Source: Naegleria gruberi
Taxonomy: Eukaryota
Strand: one strand, 5' to 3'
Length of the DNA stretch: 64,000 nucleotides
NCBI GenBank assembly: GCA_000004985.1
Contig: GG738904.1
Under the pieces are notes generated by a model. The model ran no database searches and was not told the origin of the DNA. It worked only from the letters and a program-made list of their open reading frames with translations. Position 1 is the stretch's first letter. Each line of letters opens with the position of its first letter. This document shows, in pieces, positions 4,301-25,392 of this stretch. The position numbers and the translations under genes are program-made.

Positions 4301-7300
4301 AATCCAACTTTTCAAGAGAGTTGAAACTCAAACACCATCCATTTTGAAAGCCTTTGGTGAGGTTTATAACAGATGGAAGGAACTTCTTGATCAACTCAAG
4401 AGTGAAGATTCTGCTTCAAATATTACCTTGAGAGATTTGTTCCCTAATTACACCTCTTTGCTATGTGCTCTCGGTGGTGTATGCATTCAAGATACAAAGG
4501 ATGAAGATTCAAGCTTTGTTCTTGATTTCTTAAAGCCAGAGGCAACAAGTGCCAATAATGTTGACAGTTATATGGATGACTTGATGAAACAAGTTATTTC
4601 AGACGATGTCAATGTCAGACAAATGGTAACCATCTCTGTTTCTACTGATTTATCACCAAGTCTTTTCACTAAATTGTTCACTGCCATGAAGGCTTCAGTT
4701 CAAGAACAATTCGGACAAACATTTGTTATTAGTCAAAAGAATAACTTACTTGTTGATCAATATCTTCACATTCTCAAGACAATTGTTGAAAATCCAGATA
4801 CTAATACTGATCTTTCTCTTGCTCAAGAAATTGATTCCATTACTGATCTCTTTGCTAACTATTGTACACACAGCGAATTTGATAACAAGGATGTCCTTGA
4901 GTTGAAGAAGAAATTATGTCAATTCCTTGAAGTTTTGATGAGCAAAGTTGAATACTTGACTTTCAAGAACATTGAAGAACAAAAGTTGAGAAGAACAATC
5001 ATTGGTCACGTTATGGAATGGACAACTGATTCTGTCTTTAAAGAAAAGACATCAACCGGAGCAAGTGTATCAACTCCTCGTGTTGCTTCTGAGGCTCCTC
5101 TTCTAGAAAACAATTCCCAAGTTTCAACTGAAGTCAAGAAACTCTACACCGATCTTGATTTGTTGTGCATGAAGGCATGTACTTCCCTTATCAATGGTAT
5201 GGTTATTGCAAACGATGAAAAAGGAAGAGAAGAATATTCAAAATACTTTGCTTTCTTATTGAGATTCCTTGAAAAGGCTAAAGACAGTACTTTTACAGCT
5301 ACAATTTACAAGGCCTTCTCTAGATTATTGCAAACAAACGTCAGTTTTGGTCTTGAGTATTACATGTCAAAGGTCTACGATAATAATAACACTATTAGAT
5401 CAACATTCTTGGGATTGCTATCTGAATTGATCAAGAAGGGACTTTTGGTTGAAGAAGAAGAAAAAAATAAGCAAGACAGAGTTTCTATTTCTGAATACCA
5501 AGAAATTATCAACAAACTTGTCTTTACCAATAGAAAGAGAGCTCTTTTTGCACTTTTTGATAAGTGCAAGAATCCAGAAAAAGATGATTTGTGTGAAGCT
5601 GTTATTAGAGTTTATCAATCAAAGGGTGAAATTGATAAGAATTTATTAGATTTGTTCCGTCAAAGTGTTACCAGAGAAGTTGCAACCACACCAAAATCAC
5701 AACCTGAAACTCTTTTCAGAGCTAACTCAACCTCTACTAAACTCTTAAAGAAGTACTGTTTGAGAGTCAGTAACCCATACTTGACAACTGTTATTGGTGG
5801 GTTCATCGATACTATGTGTACTAAGCCAACCAAATTTGAAATCGATCCACTGAAGGCTCAACAAAGAGGAGAAAGCGTTGAAGAAAACGTTGAAAATATT
5901 CTTGAAGTATTACAAGAATTTATTGACTGCCTCTGTGATTCAGTCCAACAAACACCTTACACCTTCAGAATGTATTGCAGATATTTGTACGAAGAAGTTG
6001 GTAAGAAATTCACTAAACCAGATGATGACAATGATGAACAATTTGACTTTAAATATATTGCAGTTGGTGGTTTCTTAATTTTGAGATTGATTTGTCCAGC
6101 CATCACTTCTCCACATTTGTATGGTTTGTCAGGAAGTGATATTCCTGCTGACTCTAGACGTTATGCAATCATTCTTACAAAGTTGGTTCAAAACTTGGCA
6201 AACGGTATTGTTGACTCCAAGAAGGAAGAATTCATGAAGAATTTTGTTGATATTATTAGACTTAATCTTAACAAGATTCAAACCTATTTTGAAAAGATTG
6301 CTGCTCCAATAGTTGAAAATGAAGAAGTTTTGAGAATTGAAGAAACAGTCACTGAAGATGAATTGAAGGAAGCATATGAAGTTCTCTATAGATTCTTCTA
6401 TAACTATGCTGATACATTGAGAGAAGAATTAAGTTCACTCTATGATGATATTGAAGATGAGGAAAAGGAAGTATTGGAAGAAGTTGATATCAATGAAAAG
6501 CCATCCTCTAAACAAAACGGTAAATCTCTCAATGATCTCTTAGAAAAGGCTATTGAACAATTTGGTAAACCAGCTGAAGAAGAAAAAACAGGAAGAAGAC
6601 TTTCTGTAAAGCTTAGCAAGGATGATGAGTTCTCCAATCCATTACTTAAGGAATTGCTCAGAAAGAATGAAAAGAAAGATACCTCAAAGATTGCTGAAAT
6701 GAAATTCTTCTCTATCAGTGAACACAAGAATGCTAAGAATCAACGTATAGTTTATTTCATTCCTTACAATTTGGATTTGACTAGATTCTCTCTTGATTTA
6801 TACTTGTACTATGTTCTCAAGAGTATGGAAACCATTTGGAAGGAACCTTATATCATTGTTGTAGATTCTACCTTCTTGACAAAGAAATTTGATATTCGTT
6901 TGTCTGTATTTATTCAACTTTCCAAACACATTCCACAAGGTGCAAAGAAGAATCTTCAAGAAATTTACTTGGTTAACCCAAATACATTCTTCAACAAGAC
7001 CACTAAGAAGCTTGTCTCCATGTTAAGTCATAATCGTTGGAAGGTCATTACTACCAGCTCTTTGCCAGCTGTCACTGACCAAAAATCAAAGACTCCAACC
7101 TCAAAGGATCCATTAGAACTTGTCAAACCTGAACATTCTATGCTTCCATCTCTCACTCAACAATTGTATGAAAAGAGTGAAATAATATATAATACTGAAG
7201 TTGTTCTTGCTTCTCATACAACTGATTGTGAAATTAGACTCTTTGATCAATACATGTTTATTGTTATCAAGGGAGAAAAGTTTATTAATAACAAGGTACC

Positions 7301-10217
7301 AGCAGATTGTTTGGAACATGTCAATGTAACAAAGATTGCCAATATTGCTGTAAAGAAGTCATTGTTTGGTAAATCAAGCAAGGCCACTAAAGATTTTGTT
7401 GTCAAGTATATTGATGATGAAGATGCTGAAGCAGCCTACAACTTTAGAGCTCAAACCATTGAAGAAAGAGACCAAATTATGCAAGGTATTAGAAACTATG
7501 TTGAAAGAAAATCAAGAGGAACAAAGACTGGAAAATCTCTTGAACGTGAATTTAAGAGACTTAAACTTCAAGATGTACCAGGTCAACTCCTTGCTATTTC
7601 ATTCTTCAATCTCGATTCTAAACACACTCCAATTAGAGCTAGTGCTTATTCGTTACTTGCTTCTATCTTTGAACAAGTCAAGATTTCTTCTCATGGTTTG
7701 ATTTTAGAAAGTGATGCTGCTTATGTTCCAAGAAATACTGAAAATACTGTTTTGAGAATTAGTGAATACGTTGCCAGAAATAAGCCTGAACTCACTTTAG
7801 AATTCATTTGTGAAGCTCTCAATGCCTTCAAGACAATCCAAGGAAATAAGTCCAAGTTGAAGTTTGCATCCTTCATCCTCCCATGGCTCGATAACTTGTC
7901 AAGATTTGAAATTTCTACTAGTGTTGATGAAGTTGATGAAAAGACCGAAACAATTAAGAATTGGTTCGAAAACTTTACCAAACTCTGTATTGCCAATGAA
8001 GAAATCTATCCAAAATTACAAAATGTTTGGAAGCACGTCTGTAAACTCTCTTTGCCACTCATTAGAATTGCTATTGAGAGTGTTATCAAACAAGGTACAA
8101 CAAGTGAAATGCTCATGAATGGAGAACAATCTATTATTGGCGATATTTTAGGAACTATTTTGTTGCACTCACCTCTTCAATGGAATGTGGCTCAATTTAT
8201 CATTAACAAGATTGTTGAACCACTCATGACAGAGGAATTGAATATTGACCTTTTGAACAAAGCAACAGTTAAAGAGTTGGTGAAATCAAAAGATATTCTA
8301 GGCAAGATTCCAGTTTACATGTCTTATCTCCTTATGTTGTCTTTTAATAGTCAAATCAATTTGTTAGAGAATTTGCCATACGTACTCTTTATTATTTCTC
8401 TCTTCTTGGGTGTTGGTTCAGATACCTACTTGAGATCAATTGTTTATGGTATTTGTTGTAACTGTGTTCACTCCCTTGTTTTGGAATTGCCAGCATGTGA
8501 ACAATTTGAGCATGTAAGAGCCAAATTGCAAAAGCTTCATTTGAGAGTTCTTGAAAAGGACATCAAGTCAAGTTTCATGGGTGGTGAACATGAACCACAA
8601 CCTTTTGCCTCATACTCTGATTTTGTCAATAAGGTTTCACAAGGAAAGGTAACATTCGATGAAACTACCATGTACAAGTATGAAGATATCATGAGATACT
8701 TTAAGGAAATCATTGAATGCTTTGACTTTAGTTACGATAGCCTTATTCAAGCTAGGGGTAAGACTTTGAAATCTCAATTTGGTTCTACCATTATAACCTC
8801 ATCCAAGGCAACTCATAGTGTTATTGAAGAATCATCTGAAAATTCCAAGGATATGGATGAAGATGGTACAGAAAATGATATGACAGAAGGAGAAGTTGAT
8901 GATGAGCATAACGGTTCTAATCCAAGCACTAGCACCTCAGATATCGTTAAATCTGGCAGTGATACCATCAAGAGTGTTTGGTTGAAGATCTTTACCAACT
9001 TATGTAAGGATACCATGAAGACAGCCAATCTCTTATTGTTCCCTAAATCTTTAATCTCATTCAGTATTATTTCCACCTCAGAACAATCATATGATATGAT
9101 TCCATTTGTTCTTAACTTTATTGGTAAGCGTGGTGTTGAAACTCTCTCCGAAAATGAGCTAATGTTGTCTGTTCTATTGTCAATTAACCAATTCTGTATT
9201 AATATGGTTGTTGAAAAGGATAGAATTGAAACTTTGAGAAAGATTATTATCTTTGGATTCTTCTTGTTGACCATTGCCAACACAAAGATTTATTCTGCTG
9301 TAACCAAGTTGCTCAGTACAGTTTTTGCCATTCTTTTTGAAGCTAGAGATATTCATGACGGTTTCTTGTCTATTGGTGATTACTTTAATCAAGTTTTCAG
9401 ATCTGACTACTCCAAGTACCTATCCATCACTAAAGAATTTGAAGAAACTGTTGGACTTTCATTTGGCCAACACTTCTCATTCACCGTTTCTCTTCTTCTC
9501 ATGAAGGGACTTGCTATTGATGACTCCACCATTAGAAAGGCAACTATTTCTCTCCTCAAACAAATCCTCTCTATCAGTTACAAACTCAAGTTTGAACCAC
9601 AAAACCAACTAGGCTTTATTGCTGCTTTAATTCCATTCGATAAGCAGTACAACTCTGTATTATATAGTGAACAACTCTATTCTGAAAGCATGTTCACTAA
9701 GGAAACTGTTTTCCTCTTCCAAAAGTACCTCTTTAGCATTACTGCATCCAACATTGATCTTGATAGCTGTGCTTCTGTTTATAGATCACTTGCAAGAGGT
9801 TTTGAAGCCATTCCTGATACTTTTGCAGATGTTTTCCAAGATCACCACAGTATGTCTCAAGTCATTAAGGTATACACCTCCTCTCAAGATGATACTATCA
9901 TTGAACATAGTTTGAATCTTTTCAAGATTATGAGTAATAATGCCAAATCAAAGAAACTTCAAGTTAAGGAACCATTTGCTGATTATGGATTCAAAGGTTT
10001 CCGTGATCAAACTACATTCCAAACCACTAAGGATGACTTGAAGAAGAAATGTCAAAAGACTTTGATTACATTCTTAACTGAAAACTTTAATGAACAAGAA
10101 TATCCATCCATGGATTCTGTAATTATTTCCAAGACTGGTATGAAGAAATCATTCCTTAAAGCCGCCTCTTCAAGTCCAGTTGTAAGACAAGCATCAGGAA
10201 CAAACTTTAAGAAATAA
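1322..10217 (+). CDS. nfaA: Neurofibromin (NF1-type RasGAP) orthologue with a Sec14/CRAL-TRIO domain; three exons: 1322-1516, 1741-1866, 1938-10217 (about 2866 aa)
   Basis: The RasGAP signature YIAVGGFLILRLICPAITSP...KLVQNLANG is colinear with the human NF1 GRD (FEIDP, FLRxxxPAIxSP, KxxQxxAN). A Sec14-like segment (IVYFIPYNLDL...YIIVVDSTFL...EIYLVNPNTFF) follows. The two 5' introns have GTAAGT donors (1517, 1867) and AG acceptors (1740, 1937), and all junctions are phase 0. The long exon is one uninterrupted 2757-codon ORF. Confidence 0.85.
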
Positions 10218-10345
10218 AATTTTTATCATAATTCTTTGAATTCAAGAACAATATTTTTGCAATGTTATACATATCTCCTTACTAAATATTGATATATTAT
10301 CTTAAGCACAAATATTATTCATTAGAATATTATTTATTTAAAAAA

Positions 10346-10992
10346 ATGTCAAAACCAACTTTGAATATTTGCCTGTTGGGAAATGTTGATTGTGGAAAAT
10401 CAACACTGACAGGAAAATTATTAGAAGTTATCGGAGGTGATTCTTCCTATTCTGAAAAGATTAAAAAATCAACTAGTAAGAATTTTGTCGAGTCAAAAAA
10501 TCATTTCTTGAATTTAATGGATGTTTGGGGTATGTGGAATTAATTGTGATTAAAATTGAAAAGTATTGATTTAAAGTGGATCAATACCTCCTGCTGGAAG
10601 TAGCAAAGGTATTTGAGGAAGATTCGAACAAGGGTATTAGAAATATAGTGATAATTGTATTGGATGCCTCGTCAGGTGGATATGAGGCCGGCCTTAGTCA
10701 ACTAAAACATCTCTTGCTATTTTTGAAAACTCTGGAAGGTATTATGCATAACAAACAATTTATATTTTGTGTGAATAAGATGGATCACTCAAGTGTTAAT
10801 TATTCTGAATTGAGATTTAAAGAAATTGTCAATGAAGTATCTAGAATGGTCACTCGGCTTGGATTCTCACAACCACCACCACAATTCATTCCAATATCCT
10901 CACTGAAATGCGAAAATATTTTAGAAAATTGTGAAAACATGAGTTGGAATGCAAGTCAACCTTCACTACTGGATGTTATAAACTCATTGTAG
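10346..10992 (+). pseudogene. EF1-alpha/Hbs1-family translational GTPase-like G domain, degenerate (switch I/II motifs missing, domains II/III absent); either a two-exon gene (10346-10529 + 10577-10992 with a 47-nt intron) or a decayed pseudogene
   Basis: MSKPTLNICLLGNVDCGKSTLTG matches the G1/P-loop GHVDSGKST. IVIIVLDASSGGYEAGLSQ...FIFCVNKMD matches EF1A VLIVAAGVGEFEAG...VGVNKMD (G4 NKxD). IPISSLKCENI matches IPISGWNGDNM. No GITI/Thr (G2) or DAPGH (G3) is present. The ORF ends at the end of the G domain. Read in the exon-1 frame, the 47-nt gtatgt...aag segment resembles the missing switch-I region weakly (W..LK....I....WK) and includes in-frame TAA/TGA codons. Confidence 0.45.
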
Positions 10993-11196
10993 CAAAAATC
11001 TTTCATGTTCCTGCCAGGAATTGAACCCCGGACTTTCTAAAATGGTCCGTTGTAAAATTCTACAGTTTTCAAAATAAATCAAGAGTATACATTTTTCGCA
11101 AAGTTTAATCTCTTGATAGTTAGTAATCTGAAAGGGAATCTTCACCTATTTATCTCTCAGTTTTCATAAAGAAAAATATATAAAACAAAATGATAA

Positions 11197-11953
11197 TCAG
11201 CTGAGGATAGATTTGATCTTTTCAATGACATTTTTTCTATTGCCACATCAACTGTTGAAAATATTGATTCCTCTTTAATGTTTGAAATGCTTCTTGCTTT
11301 GAAGAATGATGACACTAGTATTTTGTGGGAAAATATGTATCAATCCATTCTCAAACTTCATCAATTGTTGGCCGCCGAAAGTGTTTCAAACTCATTCTCT
11401 AGAATGGTAAAAGATTTGGTTAAAAACAAGTATGAATCAATTGGATGGACCAATGTACCAGGAGCAGATGAAGATGAGGAAAATCTTGATGAATTACGTC
11501 CATCTCAATTTGGCCTGTCGTTTTGGTCTCACTGAATGTGTCACTGAAGCCTTTAAACGTTATCAAGAAAGAAACTCAACCATTATTCCTCCAATTCTTC
11601 GTAATGCTGTTTATAGAGCTGTTGTTTCTAATGGTGGAGAACGTGAATATTATCAAATTTTGAATCAATTCAAAGCTGAGCAAGATTCTGTGGAAAGAAC
11701 CAAGTTAGTGTATGCAAGATTCCACTCTTGCAAACGACCTTGGATTTGGCCCTTTCTCCACCATGTTAAGCCACAAGATAGTATCTTCCTTATTAGAGAA
11801 GTTGCAAGAAATGTACCAAGTGGACCAAACGTTGCTTTTGTCAGAACTAGATATGATGCCATTCTCTCAAAATGTGGACAAGATCAAGTCAGTAATAGAT
11901 TATCATATGGGGTTGGTTCTCTATTCACTAATATCTTTGAAAGGGATGAATAG
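11197..11953 (+). pseudogene. 3'-terminal fragment (about 250 codons) of an M1-family aminopeptidase (puromycin-sensitive aminopeptidase-like C-terminal ERAP1_C region), with an internal frameshift near 11490
   Basis: Frame 1 (AEDRFDLFNDIFSIATSTVENIDSSLMFEMLLALKNDD...ESIGWTNVPGADEDEENLDEL) then frame 2 (HLNLACRFGLTECVTEAFKRYQ...ILRNAVYRAVVSNGGEREYYQILNQFKAEQDSVERTKLVYA...HVKPQDSIFLIREVARN...) are colinear with the C-terminus of metazoan PSA (DRLGLQNDLFSLARAGIISTVE...LRSPVYLTVLKHGDG...EVRPQDTVSVIGGVAGG). Homology begins abruptly after in-frame TGA/TAA codons at about 11190. There is no room upstream for the roughly 650-aa catalytic (HEXXH) domain on this strand. Confidence 0.6.
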
Positions 11954-11989
11954 ATTCAATATTTTGCTCCAAATATTGAAAAATTGAGC

Positions 11990-12568
11990 ATGAAGCATTA
12001 TTATATTAGTGGAATGAAACAATTAACATTACTTAATATTGGGAACAATCAAATTGGTGTAGAAGGATCCAAATTCATACATGAAATGAAACAATTAACA
12101 TCACTTGATATATATTATAATGAAATTGGTGTAGAGGGATCCAAATTCATAAGTGATATGAAACAATTAACATCACTTAATATTAATTACAATCGAATTG
12201 GTGATGAAGGAGCCAAATTTATAAGTGAAATGAAACAATTAACATCACTTGATATTTATAACAATGAAATTGGTGTTGAAGGAGTCAAATCAATAAGTGA
12301 AATGAAACAATTAACATCACTTAATATCAGTGGAAATCAAAGTGGTGCCGAAGGAGTCAAATTAATAAGTGAAATGAAACAATTAACATCACTTAGTATT
12401 AATTACAATCGAATTGGTGATGAAGGAGTCAAATTAATAAGTAAAATGAAACAATTAGCATCACTTGATATTAGTGGAAATGGAATTGGTGATGAGGGAG
12501 CCAAATTAATAAGTGAAATGAAACAATTAAAATCGCTTAGTATTCATAACCAACAGATGTTTAAGTAA
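11990..12568 (+). CDS. Leucine-rich-repeat protein made only of about 8 tandem 24-aa RNI-like repeats (MKQLTSLDIxxNxIGxEGxKxISE); possibly a 3' exon or an orphan array
   Basis: The ORF-track protein is a near-perfect array of 24-aa repeats, which equals 72-bp tandem DNA repeats. The frame opens only 3 codons before the ATG (at 11981), immediately after the aminopeptidase fragment. No F-box or other N-terminal domain is found upstream. Confidence 0.45.
   Translation: MKHYYISGMKQLTLLNIGNNQIGVEGSKFIHEMKQLTSLDIYYNEIGVEGSKFISDMKQLTSLNINYNRIGDEGAKFISEMKQLTSLDIYNNEIGVEGVKSISEMKQLTSLNISGNQSGAEGVKLISEMKQLTSLSINYNRIGDEGVKLISKMKQLASLDISGNGIGDEGAKLISEMKQLKSLSIHNQQMFK
12000..12560. repeat. Tandem 72-bp coding repeats (LRR units); the same repeat family recurs at 29680-29990
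   Basis: An identical 33-mer, agtgaaatgaaacaattaacatcacttgatatt, occurs at about 12231 and about 29755. The period is 72 bp. Confidence 0.8.
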
Positions 12569-12673
12569 AATCCAAAAAAAAGGATTTGGCCAGACTCTGC
12601 CTCACACTCATTATAATAACTGTTAAGATTCTACTCTTTTTTTTTACTTAATGTATCTAAATCTCTGCCCATT

Positions 12674-14334
12674 CTATCCTAAGGTGTGAACTCCTTGTTG
12701 CGAATTAAATGGTGCTTCGGTTGATGTTGTTGGGTTATCATCTTGTGCAATAGGTGTGGTGGCTGTTGATTCAGTTGCATAATTTGTAGTTGCATTGGAT
12801 TGTGAACTGCTTGTGGCACTACTATCAACAGGTGTTGTAATGTTAGTGTTAGCAGCAGGTTGTGTCATGGTATTGATTATCCTTGGTTTGACATCTTCCA
12901 AAAGGGTTGGAATAGATTGAGAAAGTTCCTTCTCTGTTAACTCCCACAACTTTGGAAGAAAGTCTGAATACTTCAATATTATTCATTACAAGTATCATAT
13001 TCTTCAACAATTCTGGAAGAGCCTCCCTCAAATGATCACTCTTTGGTTTGACGAGTAAAAAGTTGTACATAACTTGAAGAATGGTGAGCCACAATGAAGA
13101 GAAACCATTATCTTGTTGACTTTCAGTATTATTCACAGGTAACATTCTTGGTAAAAAGTGCAGGAATATTCTAGCAAGTAAGTTGTTGGCTCTGACCCTA
13201 AGCTCTTCTAAAGAGGAAATATCCATTTCTGTATTGTGATTGGTTTGATATTCAGTTGTCTTTGGTTTGAGTGTGAGAAGAGTTTGGAAAAATGTCTTGA
13301 GCAATACACGATCCATACACATCATTAAGAGTTGATCATTGAGGAGATATTTTAGATTTTGTGAGTCTTCTTGGTTGGCAGTGAATGAATATCTGAAATC
13401 ACAACTATAAACAAGAGATCTTTGTAAGGTTGAAAGTGCTTGGGTTCTAATATCTCTTTGGAGGTGGCTCAACATTTGAATTTGACTATTATTCAATTGT
13501 GACATTAGTAAGTTCAGAACATTGACCGGTCCACTAGTGTTAATGCCACCAGTGCAACACAATACTGCTATACCTTCAAGAATTGAAAGCCAAGCATTGA
13601 TCCACTTGTTATCCAATTTGATGACGTTTTGGGATGAGTTAGCAGATGAATAGGCAATGGATACAATTCTCTTCAAAATTTCCATAACCAAATTTTCCAA
13701 AATGATTAAAATGTCCATTGTGAGAGCCATAAGCTTTTTAAGGGTGGATACAAATTGTTGGGAGCTATTGCTTCCATTGGAGGTGTTTTGAATATTTACA
13801 TTTGTTGTAATGGAAGAACTCAAAACGGACAAGATACTTTGGACAATGTTGGGAAATTATCAGGAACAACAAACCATAACCCGAAATGAGTAGTATCATC
13901 CTGTAATGTAGAGTATTGAAAACTGAGAGTAAGTACATCTAATGATCTGGTAATTAATTGTAATGGTTGTGAAGGTTTGATGGATGTGAAGAGTGAGCTA
14001 TTAGGATTATTATTTATCCATGAGGAGGAAACGTTGGAAATACTTCTCAAAATCTTGAAAACTAAATGATCCCACAAATCTACAATAAGTCTTGATGAGC
14101 TATCAGTAAATATTGTGGAAGGATTAAGATTGGTAGCATTTGTACGATCTTGAATTTGGTAGCCATTGGTGAGAGTAGAGTTTCACCTTGTCTCGACAAG
14201 AACATGTGAATCATAGGAAGTAAACTATTATGGAAAACACCCAACATGGTTTCACTCCATTGCTTACCAAGGTTATCAATAAGGACAGAGCATTTCTTTT
14301 TGACCAATCTCCCATTCTGCTTGATTTTCAACAC
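12674..14334 (-). pseudogene. GBF1-like (Golgi brefeldin-A-resistance factor / Sec7-family ARF-GEF) C-terminal HDS region only; split across at least 4 reading frames; no Sec7 domain or N-terminus present
   Basis: The 327-aa ORF contains WLSILEGIAVLCCTGG...DIRTQALSTLQRSL...LRVRANNLLARIFLHFLPRMLP...SSLWLTILQVMYNFLLVKPKSDHLREALPELLKNMILVMNNIEVF. This is colinear with the human GBF1 C-terminus ([71 protein letters not shown]). The next GBF1 block, LWEITWERIDCFLPHLRDELF, appears as LWELTEKELSQSIPTLLEDV in a different frame (ORF 12674-12976). Upstream pieces (13820-14077, 14080-14334, possibly 14617-14823) are in further frames. A reverse-strand GTAAGT at 14463-14468 does not give a frame-consistent splice. 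The upstream 3+ kb needed for DCB/HUS/Sec7 is occupied by a plus-strand gene. Confidence 0.5.
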
Positions 14335-14931
14335 TATTGAATTGGGTAATGTTGCTTGGTCATTCTTGTTCTGATTGGTTGATTATTTGTTACTGGGAGT
14401 GGGCTGTTTCTATCGCTACCAGAACTAGTACCGAAAGGATTGGATGAACCTACAGATGGTGGAGCATTATGTACTTACAAGGAAAAGTCAAAAGTTTCTT
14501 GACTACTTTGGGAAAGAATGAATCTTTTGGAAGATTGGAAGAATTTACAATTGGAATGTATGTCGAGGCAACAGAATTGCAAAAATTGAAGAAATCTCTC
14601 AAACGTTTGACTCGAGTTAAATCTGAAGAGAATGACTGTTAGGTCCGTTATTAACTTGGTAAATGGATTGAATGGTACTGATTGGTTGGTATAATTGCAA
14701 AATGGAAATCATTAATTTGTAAACGTGTATACTGTAAACATAATTCCAAATAAGTTTCAATCTTTCGCAACCAGTATTTCTATTCAAATTATTATTAATC
14801 AAAACATCACACAATAAATCCAAACAGAAGAGGGAAGTATCAAAGTCTCTTTCATAATAGTAATAGGTTGCATTTTGTTGTTGTTTTCAATGTGAACAAG
14901 TGAGGAGCAGAATGAATGTGCCAATTAAAAA

Positions 14932-17900
14932 ATGCAAGACGATAAATCATCAATTCCCGAAGGTGTCGTTGCTGATGAAGAAACAAATCCAACTATTCCA
15001 GGACATGAATCCACCATTGAACAAAATCCTTCTTCAACGGAGGAGAGCAAAATGACCTATCCAACACTCCACAAAAGTTTGAAGAAATCTTTCAGTCAAA
15101 TTGTGTCTTGTGGAGGAAGTTTTGTTTGTTCTGATAAGTTTGATGGTGTGACACTTCCTGGATTGGAATTACTTGTTTCTGCTGCTCAAGATTCTGATAA
15201 GAAATATAAAGCAATGCCCTTTCCGATTGTTTATAAAGAGCAAGCTGATGAAATTATTAGAATTGCAAAGAAATCACCTTATGGAAAGGGAGAGGAAACA
15301 ATTTATGATGACAATGTGAGAAATTCCTATGAATTGGAACCAAATCAATTTAGAATTACAAATACAATGTGGCAAAAAGAATTAAATCAATTATTGGAAA
15401 CAAAAATTAAAAGTGGACTGGGAATTGACAAGTACAAGAATGTGGAATGTAAATTGTACAAATTACTATTGTATGAAAAAGGAGGACATTTTGAATATCA
15501 CAAAGATTCTGAAAAAGAATGTAAACAAACATGCACATTGGTTATTATTTTACCATCCATCTTTGAAGGAGGAGAATTCAAAATCAAACACAATGATTAT
15601 GAAATGGAAATTGCCACAACAAATGATTATGCAACTGAGTGAGTATTATAGTATGAACAATTTATTGAAAATTAATTTCAAATCTCCCATTATTGAATTT
15701 AATCATGATGAATTCTTGGCAGTTGTCATTTCATTTCATTTTACTCTGATTGTGATCATGCTGTTATGCCACTCACAAGTGGATACAGAACTTGCCTTAT
15801 CTATAATATTATTGTAACAACTCATCAAGAAAATCAGCAATTATCCATTGCAGATAATCATGTACATTCTGAAAATGTAAGAGAACAATTATCAGAGTGG
15901 TTGAAAACTGATTTGTCCAAGAAACCATTAGTTTATTTGCTGGAACACGAATATACAACAGAAAGTTTAGTTTTTGGATGTGAAAATTTGAAAGGAAATG
16001 ATTACAAAATTTATTCTGCACTCAAAGCATCCAAATTGCCATTGCTCTTGTTTCCATCTTTCTTTACAAAACGTGTTAATGAAGGGTTTAGTGATGATGA
16101 TTTCTTTGAAGAGGGAGTGTTTTTAACCATCTCTAAAATGTACTTTGATGAAAAGGCAATACTTTCCGATGTCTCTGTTTCGCCATCTCAGGTTTTTTCA
16201 TTTCCAGGAAAAGATATGAAAGATATGAAACTAACAAAGTCAACTGAACATCAAACAGGTAAGTACGAGAGAATTATTTAGATAGTTAATCATTCTAACA
16301 GGAAATTATGGAACTCAATCATCTAAATGGTATCAAAAAACATGCTTGATCATTTCTTCTAATCAATTTAGTTCAATTGTGGAGCTAGGATTTAATTTTG
16401 GTATGAACTACTTTGAATTTCTTTCTAAAGCTGAAAGTGAGCAGATTAACGAATTTTATGAATCATTTACAAAGGAAGAATGGAAATTACCATACAGACA
16501 TACTATTAGCAAGCAAGAGATGTTCGTAATGACATTAATTAAAACTGGCAAGAAAGATTTGACCAAAAAATTCCTTGAGGAAGAGTGTAGCTCGGCCTCA
16601 ATCACAGCAAAAGCTTTAAAACAATGTTTGAATGTATTTGAAGACCAAGAGTTTAAACAGATTGTTTTTCAATATTGTATTGATAGTTTAACAAATCTTG
16701 AACACGGACATAAGCTTGATATTGATGAATACTTGGAAGCACTAGAGCCGTTCGTTACCCCTAAAATGGTAAACTATATTGAAACACAGCTGGTCAAATC
16801 AGTCGATTCAATCCGTAATCTAAACTCATTCTACTTATTTTGTGAAAAAAAGCGAGACAAATTTAGTTATACATTTAATAAGGGTTAGTTTTCTACATTT
16901 ATTTCAATGCTCACCCTATTTAGATTTATTTTTACCGATATTTAGATCTCTTTATAGCCAATTAAAACACTGCAAAGCTCAATATTTTCCTCTTTGTGAC
17001 ACTTATATGTGTGAGGAATTTGTAAAAGGTACAATAGAATTCTACTTTAACAATGATTATAATAGAGGTTTACAACTCATTCAAAAGTATGGATACAATA
17101 CATTTGATCCAAATAAGGTTTTTTCAGTTTTGAACCCATCCCATTATTTTGAAAATTACAAAAAAGATATTGAAGACAATGAGTTGAAATTGTTCTATTC
17201 TGGATTTAGAAAATACATGATTGAAAAACGATTACTTGATAACCGATCTGAGAGAGAAGTAGTTCTCAAACATTTACTCGAAAAAGAAGAGTATGAAACT
17301 CTCTTGCATACTTTGAAAACCTATAATAAGAATGTCATTAGTAATATTTATATTTTGGATAGATTTCTAAAGAATTTCAAACCAATAGTTGATAATACTA
17401 TATTGCAACAATGGATTAATATAACGCAAATGTGTATCTCCTCTATTAAGGGAGGCTTGTCTAGAAGCTATATTGAAATATTAACCTACAAACTTCCTCA
17501 CACTTTGCCATGCACTTGTGAGCTGTGTGCATCTGTACAAAAGTTTTTAAAGAGTTCTAAAGACTCCTTTTCCAAAATTGGAGTTTCTAAAACAAGCTAT
17601 GATCACGTGAAAAGTTATTTGGAAAAATTAGAACGTTTGAGTCAATATTGGTCAAATGAAAAATTAACGATTAACAAGAGTGGTTATTCTAGCAAATATA
17701 GTGAAAATATTATGAGATATGCTTTAGAAAACCTCAATGAATTATTACAATTTTTGATCCACCACCAAACTGATAAAGACTCTAGACCTCAATTTAGCTT
17801 TACAAGAATTACAGCATCTAGCCCAGCTGGAGAAGAGAGTGTAAAAAGAGAAGCAGAACGGGTAGAGAAAGAGAAGAAAGAAAGACTCGAAAGGGAAGAA

Positions 17901-18608
17901 GCCAAAAAAAGAGAAGCAGAAGAAAAGCTACTTCAAAAGAAAAAATTGGAAGAAGAAGCTCTGCTTAAAAAGAAAAAACGAGAGGAACAAAGATTACTCA
18001 AAAAGAAACAAAAAGAAGAAGAAAATAGACTCAAGAAAGAAAGAGAGGAAGAAGATAAAGAACTTCGTAAAGTTGAAAAAGAGTTAAAGAAGAGGAAGAA
18101 GGAAGAGATAAAAAAGGAGCAGCCAACACCAGCCAGCTCAAGTCAATCCAGCTCAACAATTAATACTCAATCACATACTGTACAAGGTACCAATTCAGCA
18201 ATTCAAACACAACCAATAGTTCCACAGCTTACATGTCAACTGGGAACAGTTTATTCTCAAATGCAGGGTATGCCACTTGTTCCAATCTCAGGTAATCTTA
18301 TCCCACCTAACTTGGTTAATTTAAATACTTTTTTTAAAATGAAGAATGACATCCAATTATCCCAATACTTTAGCACGGCTATGATTTGGACACCATTATC
18401 TACACCTCCAGAGCTGATCACTTTATCTGCTAATTGGGTTTCTCAATATTTATGCACTGCTGTACAAATTTCACCTAGTCTTTACTTTTTGTTGATGCCA
18501 ATTCAAAGATATTTTCAAACTTCCCCAACTGATTTGCGTTTCATTTCTATTGTCACAGATTTGAAAGGAATTCAAATGATACTTGCTCCAATAGTTAAAA
18601 AAGAATAG
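14932..18608 (+). CDS. 2-oxoglutarate/Fe(II)-dependent oxygenase-like N-terminal domain joined to a long C-terminal region with a K/E-rich coiled coil; proposed exons 14932-15638, 15723-16258, 16302-16883, 16924-18608
   Basis: An HxD...H...R arrangement is present: GGHFEYHKDSEK, then after the intron ...DCDHAVMPLTSGYRTCLIYNI. The donors are GTGAGT (15639) and GTAAGT (16259), with phase-consistent AG acceptors (15722, 16301). The last junction is either a 40-nt intron (donor gttagt at 16884, acceptor at 16923) or a 1-nt indel in the A7 run at 16845-16851. Both frames are open across 16842-16888, and the downstream frame has no ATG (the ORF-track M is GTG). The C-terminal part contains EREEAKKREAEEKLLQKKKLEEE.. 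(17.8-18.1 kb). Confidence 0.5.
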
Positions 18609-20400: not shown

Positions 20401-20930
20401 TTTTTATTTTATAATTAAATTAATTTTTAATATAGAATTAAAATTAGCAATCGAGTTCATTGTTGCTTTTTATTGAATAATCGAATAGGTGATGTAATTA
20501 AAGGAGTTTACAACAATTTAATATTAAATAGTATTTTTTTTAAATATATTATTATTTCAATCCATTCATTGTAAAAATAACAAAATCGAAACGAGATCAA
20601 AAGCTAAATATACATTAAGAATTGAATTAGAGTCAATGACCAGTGTCTACGATTATTTAGAACCCAAAATATTAAACAACAAGTAACTCCGGGATCCGAT
20701 AAACGGAGAAGAAATTGTAAAGTTTTATTCCGGTGGTATTTTTTTTAGAGCCTTGCTGAACAAGCAGGCTTCAACAACAGCGAGGCTTGCTTGACTTTTG
20801 GTTTTATTGCTGTGAAGAGCAAGACTACCAAATCGTTTCTCTTGAAAAAATAAAATAAATTTAAAAATTATTTAACAAATTTACGTAAAAAAAATAAGAC
20901 CATACACACTCTACCCATCATCCAATAAAA

Positions 20931-22751
20931 ATGAGAGAAGGAGAAAGTCAATACGGTGATATCTTGTCTGTTTCAGGACCAGTCGTCGTTGCTGAAAAGA
21001 TGGAAGGTGCTGCCATGTACGAACTTGTTCGTGTTGGTAATCAACAACTTGTGGGTGAAATTATTCGTTTGGAAGGTGATACTGCCACAATCCAAGTCTA
21101 CGAAGAAACATCAGGTTTGACTGTTGGTGATCCAGTATTGAGAACTGGACAACCATTGTCTGTTCACTTGGGTCCAGGTATCATGGGTAGTATTTTCGAC
21201 GGTATCCAACGTCCTTTGGAAGTCATTTATAAAAACTGCAATGAAGATATTTACATTCCTAGAGGTATTAACGTAAATTCATTGGATATGGATAAGAACT
21301 GGTTTTTCAACCCAACAAACTTCTCTATTGGTGATAAAATCACTGGAGGTGACATTTTCGGTGAAGTTGAAGAAAATGACTTTATTAATCACAAAATCCT
21401 CCTTCCACCAGGTGCTATGGGTGAAATTACTTATATTGCTAGCCCAGGTAACTATACTCTTAACGATGCTGTCATTGAAGTTGATTTCAATGGTATGAAG
21501 AGACAATTCGGTATGGCCCACTTCTGGCCTGTACGTCAACCTCGTCCAGTTATTGAAAAGTTAGCTGGTGATTATCCAATTTTGACTGGTCAACGTGTTT
21601 TGGATGCTGTCTTCCCTTCTGTCCAAGGTGGTACTTGTGCTATTCCAGGTGCCTTTGGTTGTGGTAAGACTGTCATTTCCCAAGCTATTTCTAAATATTC
21701 TAACTCTGAAGCTATTATCTACGTTGGTTGTGGTGAACGTGGTAACGAAATGGCTGAAGTATTGATGGAATTCCCTCACCTTACTGTTACTAATCAAAAG
21801 ACTGGTAAGGAAGTTTCTATCATGAACAGAACTTGTCTTGTTGCTAACACTTCAAACATGCCTGTTGCTGCCAGAGAAGCTTCTATTTATACTGGTATTA
21901 CATTGTCCGAATATTTCAGAGATATGGGTATGAACGTTGCTATGATGGCTGACTCTACTTCTCGTTGGGCTGAAGCTTTGAGAGAAATTTCTGGTCGTCT
22001 TGCTGAAATGCCTGCTGACTCTGGTTATCCAGCTTATTTGGGTGCTCGTTTGGCTTCTTTCTATGAACGTGCTGGTAAGGTTCGTTGTATTGGTAATCCA
22101 GGTCGTACTGGTTCAATTACTATTGTCGGTGCTGTTTCTCCACCTGGTGGTGACTTTGCCGATCCAGTTACTGCTTCAACTTTGGGTATTGTCCAAGTCT
22201 TTTGGGGTTTGGATAAGAAATTGGCTCAAAGAAAGCACTTCCCTTCAGTCAACTGGCTCATTTCCTACTCTAAATACATTAACTCTTTGGAACCTTTCTA
22301 TGAAAAGGTCGATCCTGAATTCGTTCGTTTGCGTACAATCATGAGAGAAATTCTCCAACAAGAAGAAGATTTGACAGAAATTGTCCAATTGGTCGGTAAG
22401 GACTCACTCCCAGAAAACGATAAGGTTACATTGGAAGTTGCTAAATTATTGAGAGAAGATTTCTTGCAACAAAACTCATTCACTGATTATGACAAGTATT
22501 GTCCATTCTTTAAGACTATTCTCATGTTGCGTAACTTTATTAAATTCTATGAAGATTCTCAAAAGGCTGTTCAAGAATCAGGTGCCAAGATTACATGGAA
22601 CACAATTAAGAATGCCATGACTGATTTGACTTACAAGTTGTCAAGCCAAAAGTTTATCAAGCCATCCCTTGGTGAAGCTGGTGTTAAACAACAACTTAAC
22701 GACCTTTATCAAGAAATTTCAAATGCTTTCAAGAATCTTGAAGAAGAGTAA
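20931..22751 (+). CDS. vatA: V-type proton ATPase catalytic subunit A (606 aa, single exon)
   Basis: Walker [13 protein letters not shown]. Strong family-wide identity (e.g. [62 protein letters not shown]). Codon usage is that of a highly expressed gene. Confidence 0.95.
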
Positions 22752-22836
22752 ATATATAAACCAATTTTGTAATAATATTGAAAATTTAAAAAACACGTGT
22801 TTAATTTTCTTCAATTTAACACAAACAAGGCAAAAA

Positions 22837-25392
22837 ATGTTTAAATTTAGTCATCATCAAAATATTAACAACAGTTCGGATCAACATTTACCTAACCATA
22901 AAGCCGAGAATTTACTGTTATTATCAACAACAACAATACGAGATAAGAAAATGTCATCATCACATTCTACCACCACAACTACTACGCAATATGTACATCA
23001 AAACAAGCCAAAATTTAAATCAAGAAGGCTATTATCGGAATTGTCAGACACTTCTTCACAACTTTCTCGGACAATCACAACTCCAATCATATCTTTCCTT
23101 GTATTTGTATTAATCATTCTTATTTATTTAGATAATTCATCCTCTTCAACATATAACCTCTTCGTCCATGCCTCTACCTCACCAACAGCAACAATAAACA
23201 ATACTCAACAACAGCCTAATACTAATACTAATACAAATACAAATAATAATAATATAGGATCTTCATCATCATCAGCAACAATTGAACAACAATCAACGAC
23301 ATCTAGTACTCCAACAGCAACAGCACCTCCTCCTCCTCGACAACCCAAGATTAATGTTGGATTTAATTTTGCATCGGAAGAAGCAGGAGCCAAGATATTA
23401 TCATCAAATCGAGAGGCAAAAGTATGTTCTTTAAAGATTCGAATATATTGAATTAATTGATTTAGAAAGTTTCAAGGATATTGAATGAAGATAGTGATAA
23501 ATATTGTCTCATTCCAAGATCAGTTCCTAAAAAGTGGATTGTTGTGGAATTATCTGAGGAAATATTAATGAAAAGTATTGCCATTGCCAATTATGAATAT
23601 TATTCATGCTCTTTTAAACATTTTAAGGTTTATGCATCTGTGAAATATCCATGTAAGGAAAAATCAAATTGTTGGGAATTGTTGGGGACTTTTCAAGCAG
23701 CAAATAGTCGAAAAGTTCAACATTTTACATTTAAAAAACCATCCATTACAAGATATGTTAAATTGGAATTTTTATCACATTATGGAGAGAATGAATATTA
23801 TTGTACTTTGAGTTTGTTAAGAGTTCATGGATCTACTTTATTGGAAGATTTGAAAAAATCTCTTCAAAAATCCAGTAAGAAAAATTCAGAATCAACTCAA
23901 ATTACAAATGAACAAACACAATCTAATAATCATGGAAGTATTGAATATGATATTAAGAAGGAAGAGGCAAATTTGAATGAATTAATCAAGGAAAATACTG
24001 AACAGATAGCATCTATTCATAATTCAGATAAGGAGAATTCTAAAAGATTGGATCAATTGGAAGAATCATTTGGAAAATTATTGAATGATGACATTTCAAA
24101 TTTAATTAAGGAAAAGATTACAAACAGTCGTATGAATTCAAAAACTGAATTTTGGGCAATGTTGGTAAAGAAGAAATTTCAAAGTTTTGGATTTTGCAAT
24201 ATTGGACGTTTGAATGATGGGAATGATAGGATATCATTTATCATTGAACAGGAAAGGGATGTCATTAATTGTACATGTTTTAAGGTTTTGAAAAAGGATT
24301 TTATTGAAAGAGTTGGATTTTTAAAGAATAGTGATAAGGGATTTTCACTTTACAATAGAACATTACATTCCAATAATACTATGAATAGTCAAGATATGAA
24401 TACCATTTCAAATAAGAATAGGGAAATTTGGGGAGTTTGTCAATACAGAGTTACTTACTTTAGTTTGAAATGTATCACTAATGGAACACTCAAGTTTGAG
24501 AATATTCAACCAACGAAAAAGCCATCTGCTAAGGATTCTAAGAAGAAGCAAAAAGTAGTTGTTGATGATGAAACAGATGGTTTAGATGAAAAGACTCCTA
24601 TGAAGAGTACTCTTTCTCACTTATTGAATGAAAAGCAAAATATCCTCAAATCCTTATTTAATGCTAGTAAGTATTTCATGATTGAATTAGTTGTTGAGTA
24701 ACGTTTGTAAAAGTTAAAATTCATGGAGAGAATGAAAATATTTTGAAAAATCAAATCAAAGCGCTTGAAATGAAGAATGCCAAGACATTCCAATATATTC
24801 ATCAAATTTTGGAAAAGAATGGAGAAGATCACAAGCTCATTGCCAACAGTTTTATATCACTGACACAGAAGAATAGAGAGCAAATAATTAATGATATGGT
24901 ATGTTTCTTTGTTTGATAGGATAATTAATAATTATTTAGAAAATTGAAATAGAAAACAAACTAAAACAAAAGATTGATCAATTCAGTTCAAGTATGGATC
25001 AAAAGATTTTAAAATTGTCACAAGAAAATATTGAAAGAATGGCTACAATGAGACGTGAAATTTTGAATTATGGATTTATTGCAGTTTTTATTTTGCTCTT
25101 ACTCATTATATCAACGAGAACAGTGCCATACGATGACTCAAAGAGAGCAAGTGAGAAGGATTCTAGCTCTACTTCCACTGCTAATATTAAGCCTCACATA
25201 GAAATTAAGAAGGATGTACCAAAGAAAGTTGGAAATTCATCCTTACTAGGAATTCTATACTCATTTTTCTTCCAAGGAATTAGAGAGCCAGTTAGTCCAG
25301 AGCCCTCCTCTCCACAAAATTATTCTTCCTCATCAGATTCTTTCAGGAATCAATCTAGAAGATCAAAGAGAAAATCTAAAAATCAGGAATAA
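22837..25392 (+). CDS. SUN-domain protein of the SUCO/Slp1 type (N-terminal TM, luminal SUN domain, coiled coil, C-terminal TM); exons 22837-23421, 23466-24666, 24714-24898, 24940-25392
   Basis: The SUN signature spans intron 1: INVGFNFASEEAGAKILSSNREAK|KVSRILNEDSDKYCLIP...WIVVELSEEI...IANYEYYS..FKHFKVYASVKYP...WELLGTF.A.N.R..Q.F...RYVKLEFLSHYGENEYYCTLSLLRVHG. The donors are GTATGT (23422), GTAAGT (24667) and GTATGT (24899). The introns are 44, 47 and 41 nt, and all junctions are phase-consistent with the ORF-track frames (23481, 24994). The first ATG outside vatA is at 22837. The TM segments are IISFLVFVLIILIYL and YGFIAVFILLLLIIS. Confidence 0.75.

What the first reader, a model, noticed from the sequence alone, without database searches (positions are those of the whole stretch)
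12674..14823. GBF1-type ARF-GEF represented only by its C-terminal HDS region, in multiple frames
There is clear colinear similarity to the GBF1 C-terminus over more than 330 aa. The homology continues in a different frame at the 3' end (LWELTEKEL...IPTLLEDV vs GBF1 LWEITWERIDCFLPHLRDEL). Further upstream pieces are in two more frames. The reverse-strand GTAAGT at 14463-14468 cannot be paired with any phase-compatible acceptor. The Sec7 catalytic domain and N-terminal DCB/HUS regions are absent, and the space is taken by a plus-strand gene from 14932. This is either a truncated GBF1 paralogue undergoing decay or a gene with several sequencing frameshifts whose 5' half was lost by rearrangement.
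Basis: partly seen in the sequence, partly recalled or inferred. Interest (0 to 1): 0.5.

Follow-up and report, generated by a model that had tools for sequence, protein, structure and literature searches.

The report
Broken GBF1 gene remnant in Naegleria
This is a dead, front-truncated and frameshifted leftover of a Golgi ARF-GEF (GBF1/Gea-type) gene in the amoeba Naegleria gruberi, an ordinary young pseudogene, part of which the public annotation wrongly presents as a 344-residue protein.

Summary
Minus strand ~14926-12674 is colinear with the last ~700 residues of heterolobosean GBF1/Gea-type ARF-GEFs (74-79% identity to a 1874-aa intact relative; Pfam TPR_28 'GBF1-like', E 1e-10). It is spread over all three frames. 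No Sec7, HUS or DCB sequence exists anywhere in the 64 kb.

The window is Naegleria gruberi NEG-M. Every frame change coincides with an indel relative to two intact, uninterrupted homologous ORFs:
- about -37 nt near 14878
- +187 nt at 14636-14450
- an ~70-80-nt deletion near 14340
- -2 nt near 14288
- -13 nt near 14151
- -1 nt at 13846
- +1 nt near 12950

None can be repaired with introns like the real ones next door (84, 43 and 40 nt). The 12950 frameshift is identical in an independent Illumina assembly, so it is not a sequencing error there.

Amino-acid change on this lineage is not accelerated, so the decay is recent. The flanks are not syntenic with the intact loci, and neighbouring DNA holds other truncated gene pieces.

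Verdict: a young 5'-truncated pseudogene, probably a dispersed partial duplicate. Whether an intact GBF1 exists elsewhere in N. gruberi could not be tested. JGI model NAEGRDRAFT_73402 bridges one frameshift with a spurious 22-nt intron. Low interest.

The parts
12674..14926 (-). Whole GBF1/Gea-type remnant. It corresponds to about residues 1163-1874 of the intact 1874-aa homologue P0001, that is, the region well downstream of Sec7 (HDS2/HDS3 and tail) through the native stop codon.
   Evidence: tblastn chain; three-way nucleotide alignment with L001 and L002; frameshift-aware alignment. The Sec7 domain of P0001 lies at residues 429-706.
14876..14926 (-). Block A, the 5'-most homologous piece (WHIHSAPHLFTLKTTT). 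Homology ends within about 10 nt of the ATG (14932) of the divergent plus-strand gene. No in-frame start codon is present.
14637..14868 (-). Block B (YYYYERD...LDLLCDVL...SIYQVNNGPNS), 77% identical to P0001 residues 1191-1267, in a different frame from block A. The frameshift lies in the low-complexity linker near 14875-14881 (net about -37 nt). This frame then runs into a TAA at 14619-14617.
14450..14636 (-). A 187-nt stretch absent from both intact homologues and unique within the window. It is bounded by GTCATT...TGTAG (length 1 mod 3, poor donor).
14340..14449 (-). Block C (SSNPFGTSSGSDRNSPLPVTNNQPIRTRMTKQHYPIQ), in a third frame. It is followed by an ~70-80-nt deletion that removes the conserved helix LQRCITCIWRLC(M/I)EL.
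14152..14338 (-). Blocks D and E (VENQAEWEIGQKEML, then VLIDNLGKQW...LSPMATKF), separated by a 2-nt deletion near 14288. Block E is 76% identical to P0001 residues 1352-1401.
13847..14155 (-). Block F (LWDHLVFKILRS...WFVVPDNFPT), 62% identical to P0001 residues 1402-1506. It is entered through a 13-nt deletion near 14151 and left through a 1-nt deletion at 13846. The HSPs abut or overlap, which leaves no room for introns.
12957..13853 (-). Block G, the long open stretch (within the 327-codon ORF 12849-13832), 74% identical to P0001 residues 1505-1807. It holds the Pfam TPR_28 match (best stretch 12981-13226).
12674..12955 (-). Block H, the C-terminal tail (LWELTEKELSQSIPTLLEDVKPR...HTLG plus stop), reached only through a 1-nt insertion near 12950-12956.
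   Evidence: The frameshift is identical in the independent contig L007.
12637..12645 (-). An A9 run about 30 nt after the stop codon. This is a native 3'-UTR feature shared with the intact genes (A10 in L001, A7 in L002), not a retrocopy tail.
12929..12950 (-). A spurious 22-nt GT..AG 'intron'. The public model NAEGRDRAFT_73402 (XP_002671648.1, 344 aa, ATG at 13730) uses it to bridge the frameshift. It removes homologous coding sequence (LWELTEK).
   Evidence: P0229 reads ...NNIEVFRLSSK|ELSQSIP...; candidate listed

Best explanation
This is a non-functional remnant (pseudogene) of a GBF1/Gea-type ARF-GEF gene in Naegleria gruberi.

Only the last ~38% of the gene is present. It has no promoter-proximal part, no start codon, and no DCB, HUS, Sec7 or HDS1 region, so it cannot exchange nucleotide on Arf. 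What is left is broken by seven frame-disrupting indels.

The decay is recent. The sequence still carries the imprint of strong purifying selection and shows no excess amino-acid change on its own lineage.

It most likely arose as a partial DNA copy of the 3' 2.2 kb of the gene plus at least ~40 nt of 3' UTR. The copy landed between two intact genes, in a stretch that also holds other truncated gene pieces, while an intact GBF1 gene persists elsewhere in the genome. This last step is inferred, not shown.

Since then it has accumulated small and medium indels, which is the dominant kind of neutral change seen between N. gruberi strains.
For: **Organism.** The window's V-ATPase A ORF and nine other ORFs are 100% identical to annotated N. 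gruberi proteins.

**Homology and truncation.**. The closest full-length relative with a name, Willaertia magna P0002, hits yeast Gea2 best in the PDB (E 1.8e-34, against 6e-17 for Sec7/BIG).

**Lesions.** The homologous genes in L001 and L002 are single uninterrupted ORFs. Each frame change in the window sits at an indel relative to both of them. Three junctions have abutting or overlapping HSPs.

**Introns excluded.** The neighbouring gene uses GTGAGT, GTAAGT and GTTAGT introns of 84, 43 and 40 nt and splices into a clean 1169-aa ORF. No path with such donors rescues the remnant. Arbitrary GT..AG pairs need at least three 'introns' of 324-367 nt, which would delete half of the conserved sequence.

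**Not a sequencing artefact.** Contig L007, from Illumina run ERR1078381 of an N. gruberi-like strain, matches 13425-12501 with the same frameshift at 12950.

**Youth.** pS is ~0.75 (saturated) and pN 0.15-0.22. In the long block, branch dN is 0.077 for the window against 0.085 for L001 and 0.132 for L002. Tajima-type counts of unique changes are 12 vs 15 and 12 vs 7, not significant.

**Indel-rich neutral spectrum.** Comparing L004 with the window gives 10 indels and ~4 substitutions in ~720 nt of non-coding DNA, and 1 substitution in the 1821-nt CDS.

**Non-ancestral context.** L001 and L002 share a downstream ~700-aa gene that is absent from the window. No flank synteny is seen with L001, L002 or L003.

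**Neighbouring fragments.** An ERAP1_C-only, frameshifted piece and a GTP_EFTU G-domain-only piece lie nearby.
Against: - No intact N. gruberi GBF1 was seen, so 'duplicate' is an inference. A search with full-length P0001 returned no N. gruberi protein. That search demonstrably also missed the annotated 344-aa model, because its cluster is represented by a 64-aa peptide, so the negative is uninformative.
- There are no in-register nonsense substitutions, and an 890-nt stretch (13846-12957) has no lesion at all. That is what a still-used ORF would look like, although (0.604)^7 = 0.03 before correction for choosing the window is weak.
- Between the two strains, 749 nt of the remnant differ by 1 substitution and 0 indels. 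That is fewer than the non-coding rate predicts (~4.6 substitutions expected, P ~0.06).
- Only one of the seven lesions was verified in independent data.
Confidence: 0.7

Rival explanations
1. Unitary relic. This is what is left of N. gruberi's own, only copy of this GBF1 gene. It was destroyed recently by a rearrangement that removed the 5' 3.5 kb and changed both flanks. The species now manages with other ARF-GEFs.
For: - No N. gruberi, N. fowleri or N. lovaniensis close homologue appeared when the intact P0001 was used as the query.
- No excess divergence is seen on the window lineage, as expected if the gene was functional until very recently.
- Contig L007 runs unbranched from the remnant across its 3' boundary into the LRR ORF. 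That argues against a near-identical second copy in that strain.
Against: - One search is unreliable for this purpose, because representative sequences hide cluster members.
- GBF1 is reported as rarely lost, and only in reduced parasites (PMC6727740).
- N. gruberi COPI localisation is brefeldin-sensitive (PMC5963838).
- Both flanks are non-syntenic with the intact loci, and the remnant lies among other gene fragments. That pattern suits an inserted copy better than an in-place decay.
Confidence: 0.15
2. The 3' open stretch is a real small gene (NAEGRDRAFT_73402, or the 293-codon ATG-to-stop ORF 13730-12849). It would encode a stand-alone HDS3/TPR_28-like helical protein, co-opted from the fragment, for example as a binder or competitor of GBF1 partners.
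For: - It is annotated as a predicted protein.
- A 327-codon ORF without lesions lies amid a heavily damaged 5' half.
- Change between the two strains is low.
- dN is not accelerated.
Against: - The clearly dead upstream blocks show the same lack of acceleration, so low dN only says 'young'.
- The annotated model needs a 22-nt non-consensus intron that deletes conserved residues. Real introns nearby are 40-84 nt with GTRAGT-type donors.
- The start would be an internal Met of the parent protein, with no evident promoter.
- Without the pseudo-intron, the frameshift at 12950 replaces the conserved C-terminus with 33 unrelated residues.
- The AlphaFold model is all-helical but of low confidence (pLDDT 50.6).
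Confidence: 0.08
3. It is an intact C-terminal part of a functional gene whose frame changes are sequencing or assembly errors, or are bridged by very short introns.
For: - All lesions are indels, with no nonsense codons.
- Two of the lesions are single-base changes.
- GT..AG pairs of 22 and 29 nt exist at two sites.
Against: - The same +1 nt occurs in an independent Illumina contig.
- Lesions of 13, ~37, ~75 and 187 nt are not base-calling errors.
- The 8.3-kb and 3.7-kb neighbouring genes are flawless.
- Homologous coding sequence continues straight through the putative introns.
- No consensus-donor splice path exists.
- The Sec7 half is absent from the 64 kb.
Confidence: 0.03

Closest known systems
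GBF1 / Gea1-Gea2 / GNOM-type large ARF-GEFs (Golgi Arf1 exchange factors; solved example S. cerevisiae Gea2, PDB 7URO)
   Same: The remnant is colinear with the post-Sec7 helical region and C-terminal tail of this family. It has a Pfam TPR_28 'GBF1-like' match above threshold. It is 74-79% identical to an intact heterolobosean member. The named relative from Willaertia magna hits Gea2 best in the PDB.
   Different: It lacks DCB, HUS, the Sec7 catalytic domain, HDS1 and a start codon, and it carries seven frame-breaking indels. It cannot be a working member of the family.
Duplicated (non-processed) pseudogenes or gene fragments, 'dead on arrival' partial duplicates
   Same: It has a sharp truncation inside the coding sequence and foreign flanks on both sides. 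It carries disabling indels, and the selective imprint is inherited from a functional parent.
   Different: The parent copy in the same genome was not demonstrated. The lesions are all indels, with no stop-creating substitutions.
Processed (retro)pseudogenes
   Same: It is 5'-truncated, its 3' end is complete through the stop codon and a short UTR, and it has an A-run after the stop.
   Different: The A-run is also present at the intact genomic loci (A10 in L001, A7 in L002), so it is not an added tail. No target-site duplications or flanking repeats were found. Intron loss cannot be scored because the parent gene is intronless in this part.
Public gene model NAEGRDRAFT_73402 / XP_002671648.1 / UniProt D2VWJ5 ('predicted protein', 344 aa)
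   Same: It covers window 13730-12674 of the remnant.
   Different: The model treats the region as a two-exon gene with a 22-nt intron. The comparison with intact homologues shows a 1-nt insertion in a dead gene fragment instead.

Membership tests
GBF1/Gea-type ARF-GEF (functional member) | Sec7 catalytic domain with the glutamate-finger motif | tested here: not met
   tblastn with three full-length homologues finds no Sec7 match in 64 kb. No FRLPGE-type motif occurs in six frames. The Sec7 domain of P0001 is at residues 429-706, but homology starts at ~1163.
GBF1/Gea-type ARF-GEF (functional member) | N-terminal DCB and HUS domains | tested here: not met
   No match to residues 1-1166 of P0001, or to the HUS-bearing N-termini of P0002 and P0094. 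No HUS-box motif was found.
GBF1/Gea-type ARF-GEF (functional member) | C-terminal HDS helical region of GBF1 type (Pfam TPR_28) | tested here: met
   PF23325 hit at E 1.2e-10, 41.9 bits against a cut-off of 27. The remnant is colinear at 74-79% identity with Sec7+TPR_28 proteins. The W. magna relative's best PDB hit is Gea2.
GBF1/Gea-type ARF-GEF (functional member) | One continuous reading frame (after splicing) with a start codon | tested here: not met
   Seven frame changes are seen relative to two intact ORFs. No consensus-intron path exists. The first homologous block has no in-frame ATG.
Pseudogene | Disabling lesions relative to functional homologues, real in the genome | tested here: met
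   Lesions are catalogued. The lesion at ~12950 is confirmed in the independent contig L007. The other six were not independently verified.
Pseudogene | Relaxed selection (elevated dN on its own branch) | tested here: not met
   Window branch dN is 0.077, against 0.085 (L001) and 0.132 (L002). Relative-rate counts are not significant. I read this as recent inactivation, not as proof of function, because the clearly dead blocks behave the same way.
Pseudogene | No functional transcript or protein | not testable with these tools
   No expression data are accessible.
Duplicated pseudogene | Intact parent gene elsewhere in the same genome | not testable with these tools
   The rest of the N. gruberi assembly cannot be searched here. 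The negative is uninformative, because cluster representatives hide members. Both metagenome scans found nothing close.
Processed (retro)pseudogene | Added poly(A) tail and target-site duplications | tested here: not met
   The A9 run corresponds to a native A-run at the intact loci. No flanking direct repeats were found.
Processed (retro)pseudogene | Loss of parental introns | tested here: inconclusive
   The homologous genes are intronless in this region, so the criterion carries no information.

The most novel reading that the evidence does not exclude
The remnant is not a spare copy but the last trace of N. gruberi's only gene of this GBF1 lineage. The gene was lost so recently that no excess divergence is detectable. 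That would make a free-living amoeba with a brefeldin-sensitive Golgi a natural GBF1-loss case. A weaker variant is that the surviving 3' ORF has been co-opted as a stand-alone HDS3-like protein.
Probability: 0.13. Interest if true: 0.55.

Novelty: new member of a known kind. Interest (0 to 1): 0.15.

Why it matters
**Annotation hygiene.** NAEGRDRAFT_73402 (XP_002671648.1, D2VWJ5) and the neighbouring NAEGRDRAFT_73400 are ORFs salvaged from dead gene fragments. They should not be counted as N. gruberi proteins, or as stand-alone GBF1-HDS or ERAP1_C domain proteins, in comparative surveys of trafficking machinery.

**Mutation spectrum.** The locus is a small, datable example of how N. gruberi DNA decays once selection is lifted. 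Change is dominated by indels, with few substitutions.

**Possible larger significance.** Only if no intact GBF1 exists elsewhere in the genome would it bear on a larger question, namely whether GBF1 is dispensable in a free-living eukaryote.

Tried and rejected
1. **Introns as the cause of the frame changes.** I enumerated all phase-compatible GT..AG pairs and searched for any spliced path. None exists with the donor types used by verified neighbouring introns. Paths with arbitrary GT..AG pairs delete half of the conserved sequence.

2. **Tiny introns.** The 22-nt (12971-12950 or 12950-12929) and 29-nt (14478-14450) candidates are rejected. Homologous coding sequence runs through them, and they are shorter than any verified intron here.

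3. **Retrocopy.** The A9 run after the stop looked like a poly(A) remnant, but the intact loci carry the same A-run. No target-site duplications were found.

4. **Sequencing error.** Rejected for the 12950 site by the independent contig L007, and made unlikely overall by the sizes of the lesions.

5. **Database searches for a closer or intact N. gruberi copy.**
   - The word-index search with the 285-aa piece found nothing.
   - The search with P0001 found only P0094, W. magna and Geosiphon. Both negatives are uninformative.
   - Two metagenome scans found nothing close.
   - Exact look-ups of ten small ORFs of the remnant found nothing.

6. **Literature.** No statement on the N. gruberi GBF1 complement was found.

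7. **PDB profile search** with the 4-sequence C-terminal alignment gave no hit.

8. **AlphaFold model** of the 285-aa piece is all-helical, but pLDDT is 50.6. That is too poor for a fold search, so none was run.

9. **A tRNA-like motif** near 11010-11060 is not supported by ARAGORN or Rfam.
Full report
**What the window is.** It is AT-rich eukaryotic DNA (31-33% GC) with long standard-code ORFs. The V-ATPase A ORF (20931-22748) is 100% identical to 'predicted protein [Naegleria gruberi]' on a 297-kb NCBI contig. Nine further ORFs of the window are exact N. gruberi RefSeq proteins, with NAEGRDRAFT_734xx tags in order along the scaffold. The window is therefore the N. gruberi NEG-M nuclear genome.

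**Check of the observation.**
- The minus strand between ~14926 and 12674 carries ORF pieces in all three frames.
- The longest piece (12978-13832) matches Pfam PF23325 TPR_28, 'GBF1-like tetratricopeptide repeats', at E 1.2e-10 and 41.9 bits against a cut-off of 27.
- An exhaustive HMMER scan of 1.84 billion representatives found P0001 (1874 aa, E 7e-125, 79% identity, matched at its residues 1513-1797) and P0002 (1596 aa, Willaertia magna, 63%).
- P0094 (1937 aa, JGI metagenome) was added.
- All three carry Sec7 and TPR_28 domains. In P0001 the Sec7 domain is at residues 429-706.
- P0002 hits yeast Gea2 (7URO) best among solved structures (E 1.8e-34, against 6e-17 for a Sec7/BIG-type chain). 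The family is therefore GBF1/Gea-type.
- tblastn of P0001 against the window gives one colinear chain, residues 1167-1867 over window 14908->12740, in frames -1,-2,-3,-2,-1,-3,-1. Identities are 77%, 76%, 62%, 74% and 55% in the well-aligned blocks.
- Nothing of residues 1-1166 matches anywhere in the 64 kb, and no Sec7 or HUS motif exists in any frame.

Two details are wrong. The GTAAGT lies at 14478-14473, and it can be paired in phase with the TAG at 14452-14450 (29 nt), although this repairs nothing.

**Why the frame changes are lesions, not introns.** The homologous genes on contigs L001 (P0001, 1408-7032) and L002 (P0094, 1472-7285) are single uninterrupted ORFs. A three-way nucleotide alignment and a frameshift-aware protein-DNA alignment place every frame change of the window at an indel relative to both intact genes:
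- a net ~37-nt deletion in a low-complexity linker (~14875-14881)
- 187 nt of extra, unique DNA (14636-14450), with the upstream frame ending in a TAA at 14619-14617
- an ~70-80-nt deletion near 14340 that removes the conserved helix LQRCITCIWRLC(M/I)EL
- a 2-nt deletion (~14288)
- a 13-nt deletion (~14151)
- a 1-nt deletion (13846)
- a 1-nt insertion (~12950)

At three junctions the HSPs abut or overlap in both query and subject, which leaves no room for an intron.

Real introns in this genome look different. The plus-strand neighbour (14932-18608) splices through GTGAGT, GTAAGT and GTTAGT introns of 84, 43 and 40 nt into a clean 1169-aa ORF. An exhaustive path search finds no way to thread the remnant with such donors. 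With arbitrary GT..AG pairs it needs at least three 'introns' of 324-367 nt, which would discard half of the conserved sequence.

**Why the lesions are not sequencing errors.**
- The lesions include events of 13, ~37, ~75 and 187 nt.
- The flanking 2757-aa and 1169-aa genes are flawless.
- A 905-nt contig (L007) assembled from an independent Illumina run (ERR1078381, an N. gruberi-like strain) matches window 13425-12501. It carries the identical sequence at the 12950 frameshift. It shows one substitution (13140 A>C, Leu>Phe, the Phe being the state in P0001). It has two indels, both confined to the 105-nt spacer before the LRR ORF.
- The other six lesions could not be checked independently.

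**Age.**
- Synonymous sites are saturated between all three sequences (pS ~0.75), while pN is 0.15-0.22.
- Partitioned onto branches, dN on the window lineage is not higher than on the lineages of the intact genes. In the long block it is 0.077 against 0.085 and 0.132. It is also not higher in two of the three clearly dead upstream blocks and in the tail block (0.046, 0.053 and 0.117). The 14150-13850 block is higher than L001 (0.163 against 0.095) but level with L002 (0.170).
- Tajima-type counts of unique replacements are 12 vs 15 and 12 vs 7, not significant.

The copy was therefore under normal constraint for nearly all of its history and was disabled recently.

Seven indels with no stop-creating substitution fit the local mutation spectrum. 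Between NEG-M and the ERR1078381 strain, ~720 nt of non-coding DNA around the V-ATPase gene differ by 10 small indels and ~4 substitutions. The 1821-nt CDS differs by one substitution.

**Context and origin.**
- At the 5' end, homology stops within ~10 nt of the ATG (14932) of the divergent neighbour.
- At the 3' end, the remnant keeps the native stop and a native-type A-run ~30 nt downstream. L001 has A10 and L002 has A7 at the same place. The A9 run is therefore not a retrocopy tail.
- L001 and L002 share a ~700-aa downstream gene (E 3e-43) that is absent from the whole window. No flank synteny exists with L001, L002 or the W. magna locus L003.
- The 4.7 kb between the RasGAP/CRAL-TRIO giant gene (1944-10217) and the 14932 gene is filled with truncated pieces:
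  - a GTP_EFTU G-domain-only ORF (10346-10992)
  - an ERAP1_C-only aminopeptidase remnant with at least three frameshifts (11200-11990)
  - a small LRR ORF
  - the GBF1 remnant
- No terminal repeats delimit the stretch.

The simplest reading is a dispersed partial DNA copy that was dead on arrival. The alternative is in-place destruction of the only copy. I cannot exclude that, because the rest of the genome is not searchable with these tools.

The absence of N. gruberi hits is not evidence either way. The annotated 344-aa model of this very locus was also missed, because its 90% cluster is represented by a 64-aa peptide.

The literature held here says that GBF1 is rarely lost (PMC6727740). 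It also says that N. gruberi COPI is brefeldin-sensitive (PMC5963838). Both favour an intact copy elsewhere without proving it.

**Annotation.** Part of the remnant is in RefSeq and UniProt as NAEGRDRAFT_73402 / XP_002671648.1 / D2VWJ5, 'predicted protein', 344 aa (P0229). The model starts at the internal ATG 13730 and reads ...NNIEVFRLSSK|ELSQSIP.... In other words, it jumps the frameshift with a 22-nt GT..AG pseudo-intron (12950-12929) that deletes the conserved LWELTEK. The adjacent ERAP1_C ORF is NAEGRDRAFT_73400.

**Could the surviving ORF be functional?**
- In favour: 890 nt without a lesion, low inter-strain change, and no acceleration of dN.
- Against: the dead blocks mostly show the same lack of acceleration. 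The model needs an implausible intron. The start would be an internal Met without an evident promoter. The AlphaFold model is only generically helical (pLDDT 50.6).

I give this reading ~8%.

**Verdict.** This is an ordinary, young, 5'-truncated and frameshifted GBF1/Gea-type pseudogene fragment in N. gruberi. It is a new instance of a known kind of object. Its main practical consequence is that two public 'predicted proteins' are artefacts of annotating dead fragments.

Noticed in passing
window 11200-11990 (+): An ERAP1_C-only remnant of an M1 aminopeptidase with no catalytic domain upstream. Consecutive parts of the Pfam profile (60-129, 134-288) lie in two overlapping ORFs of different frames. 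By eye there are at least three frameshifts. The 173-aa ORF is annotated as NAEGRDRAFT_73400 / XP_002671594.1.
   Followed up: partly
window 10346-10992 (+): A GTP_EFTU G-domain-only ORF (199 aa after removing a 47-nt GTATGT..AAAG intron at 10530-10576). The switch region (profile positions 41-93) and domains II/III are missing. It may be another truncated gene piece. This spliced sequence is not in the protein collection.
   Followed up: partly
window 10218-14931: The whole 4.7-kb interval between two intact genes consists of truncated gene pieces from unrelated families (GTPase, aminopeptidase, LRR, GBF1). No flanking repeats were found. The origin of this 'fragment yard' is unexplained.
   Followed up: partly
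window 11984-12568 (+): An LRR_6 ORF built of eight 72-nt (24-aa) tandem units of the MKQLTSL type. It is convergent with the GBF1 remnant, with only 105 nt between the two stop codons.
   Followed up: no
L004 vs window 20632-23189; L007 vs window 13425-12501: An N. gruberi-like strain in run ERR1078381 / assembly ERZ929261 differs from NEG-M in non-coding DNA mainly by small indels (10 indels against ~4 substitutions in ~720 nt). Coding sequence is almost unchanged.
   Followed up: partly
window 14450-14636: A 187-nt stretch inside the remnant is absent from both intact homologues and unique in the window. It is T-rich on the minus strand and carries a 57-codon plus-strand ORF (14469-14642). 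Its source is unknown.
   Followed up: partly
protein P0003: A 1756-aa database protein matches the TPR_28-like segment of the query in 14 separate stretches, which suggests a protein made of repeated copies of this module.
   Followed up: no
window 11010-11060: A GGTTCAATTCC T-arm-like motif on the minus strand. Neither ARAGORN nor Rfam supports a tRNA there.
   Followed up: yes
protein database behaviour: The 90% cluster holding the 344-aa N. gruberi model is represented by a 64-aa peptide. Word-index searches therefore missed an exact self-match. Negative results from those searches should not be read as absence.
   Followed up: yes
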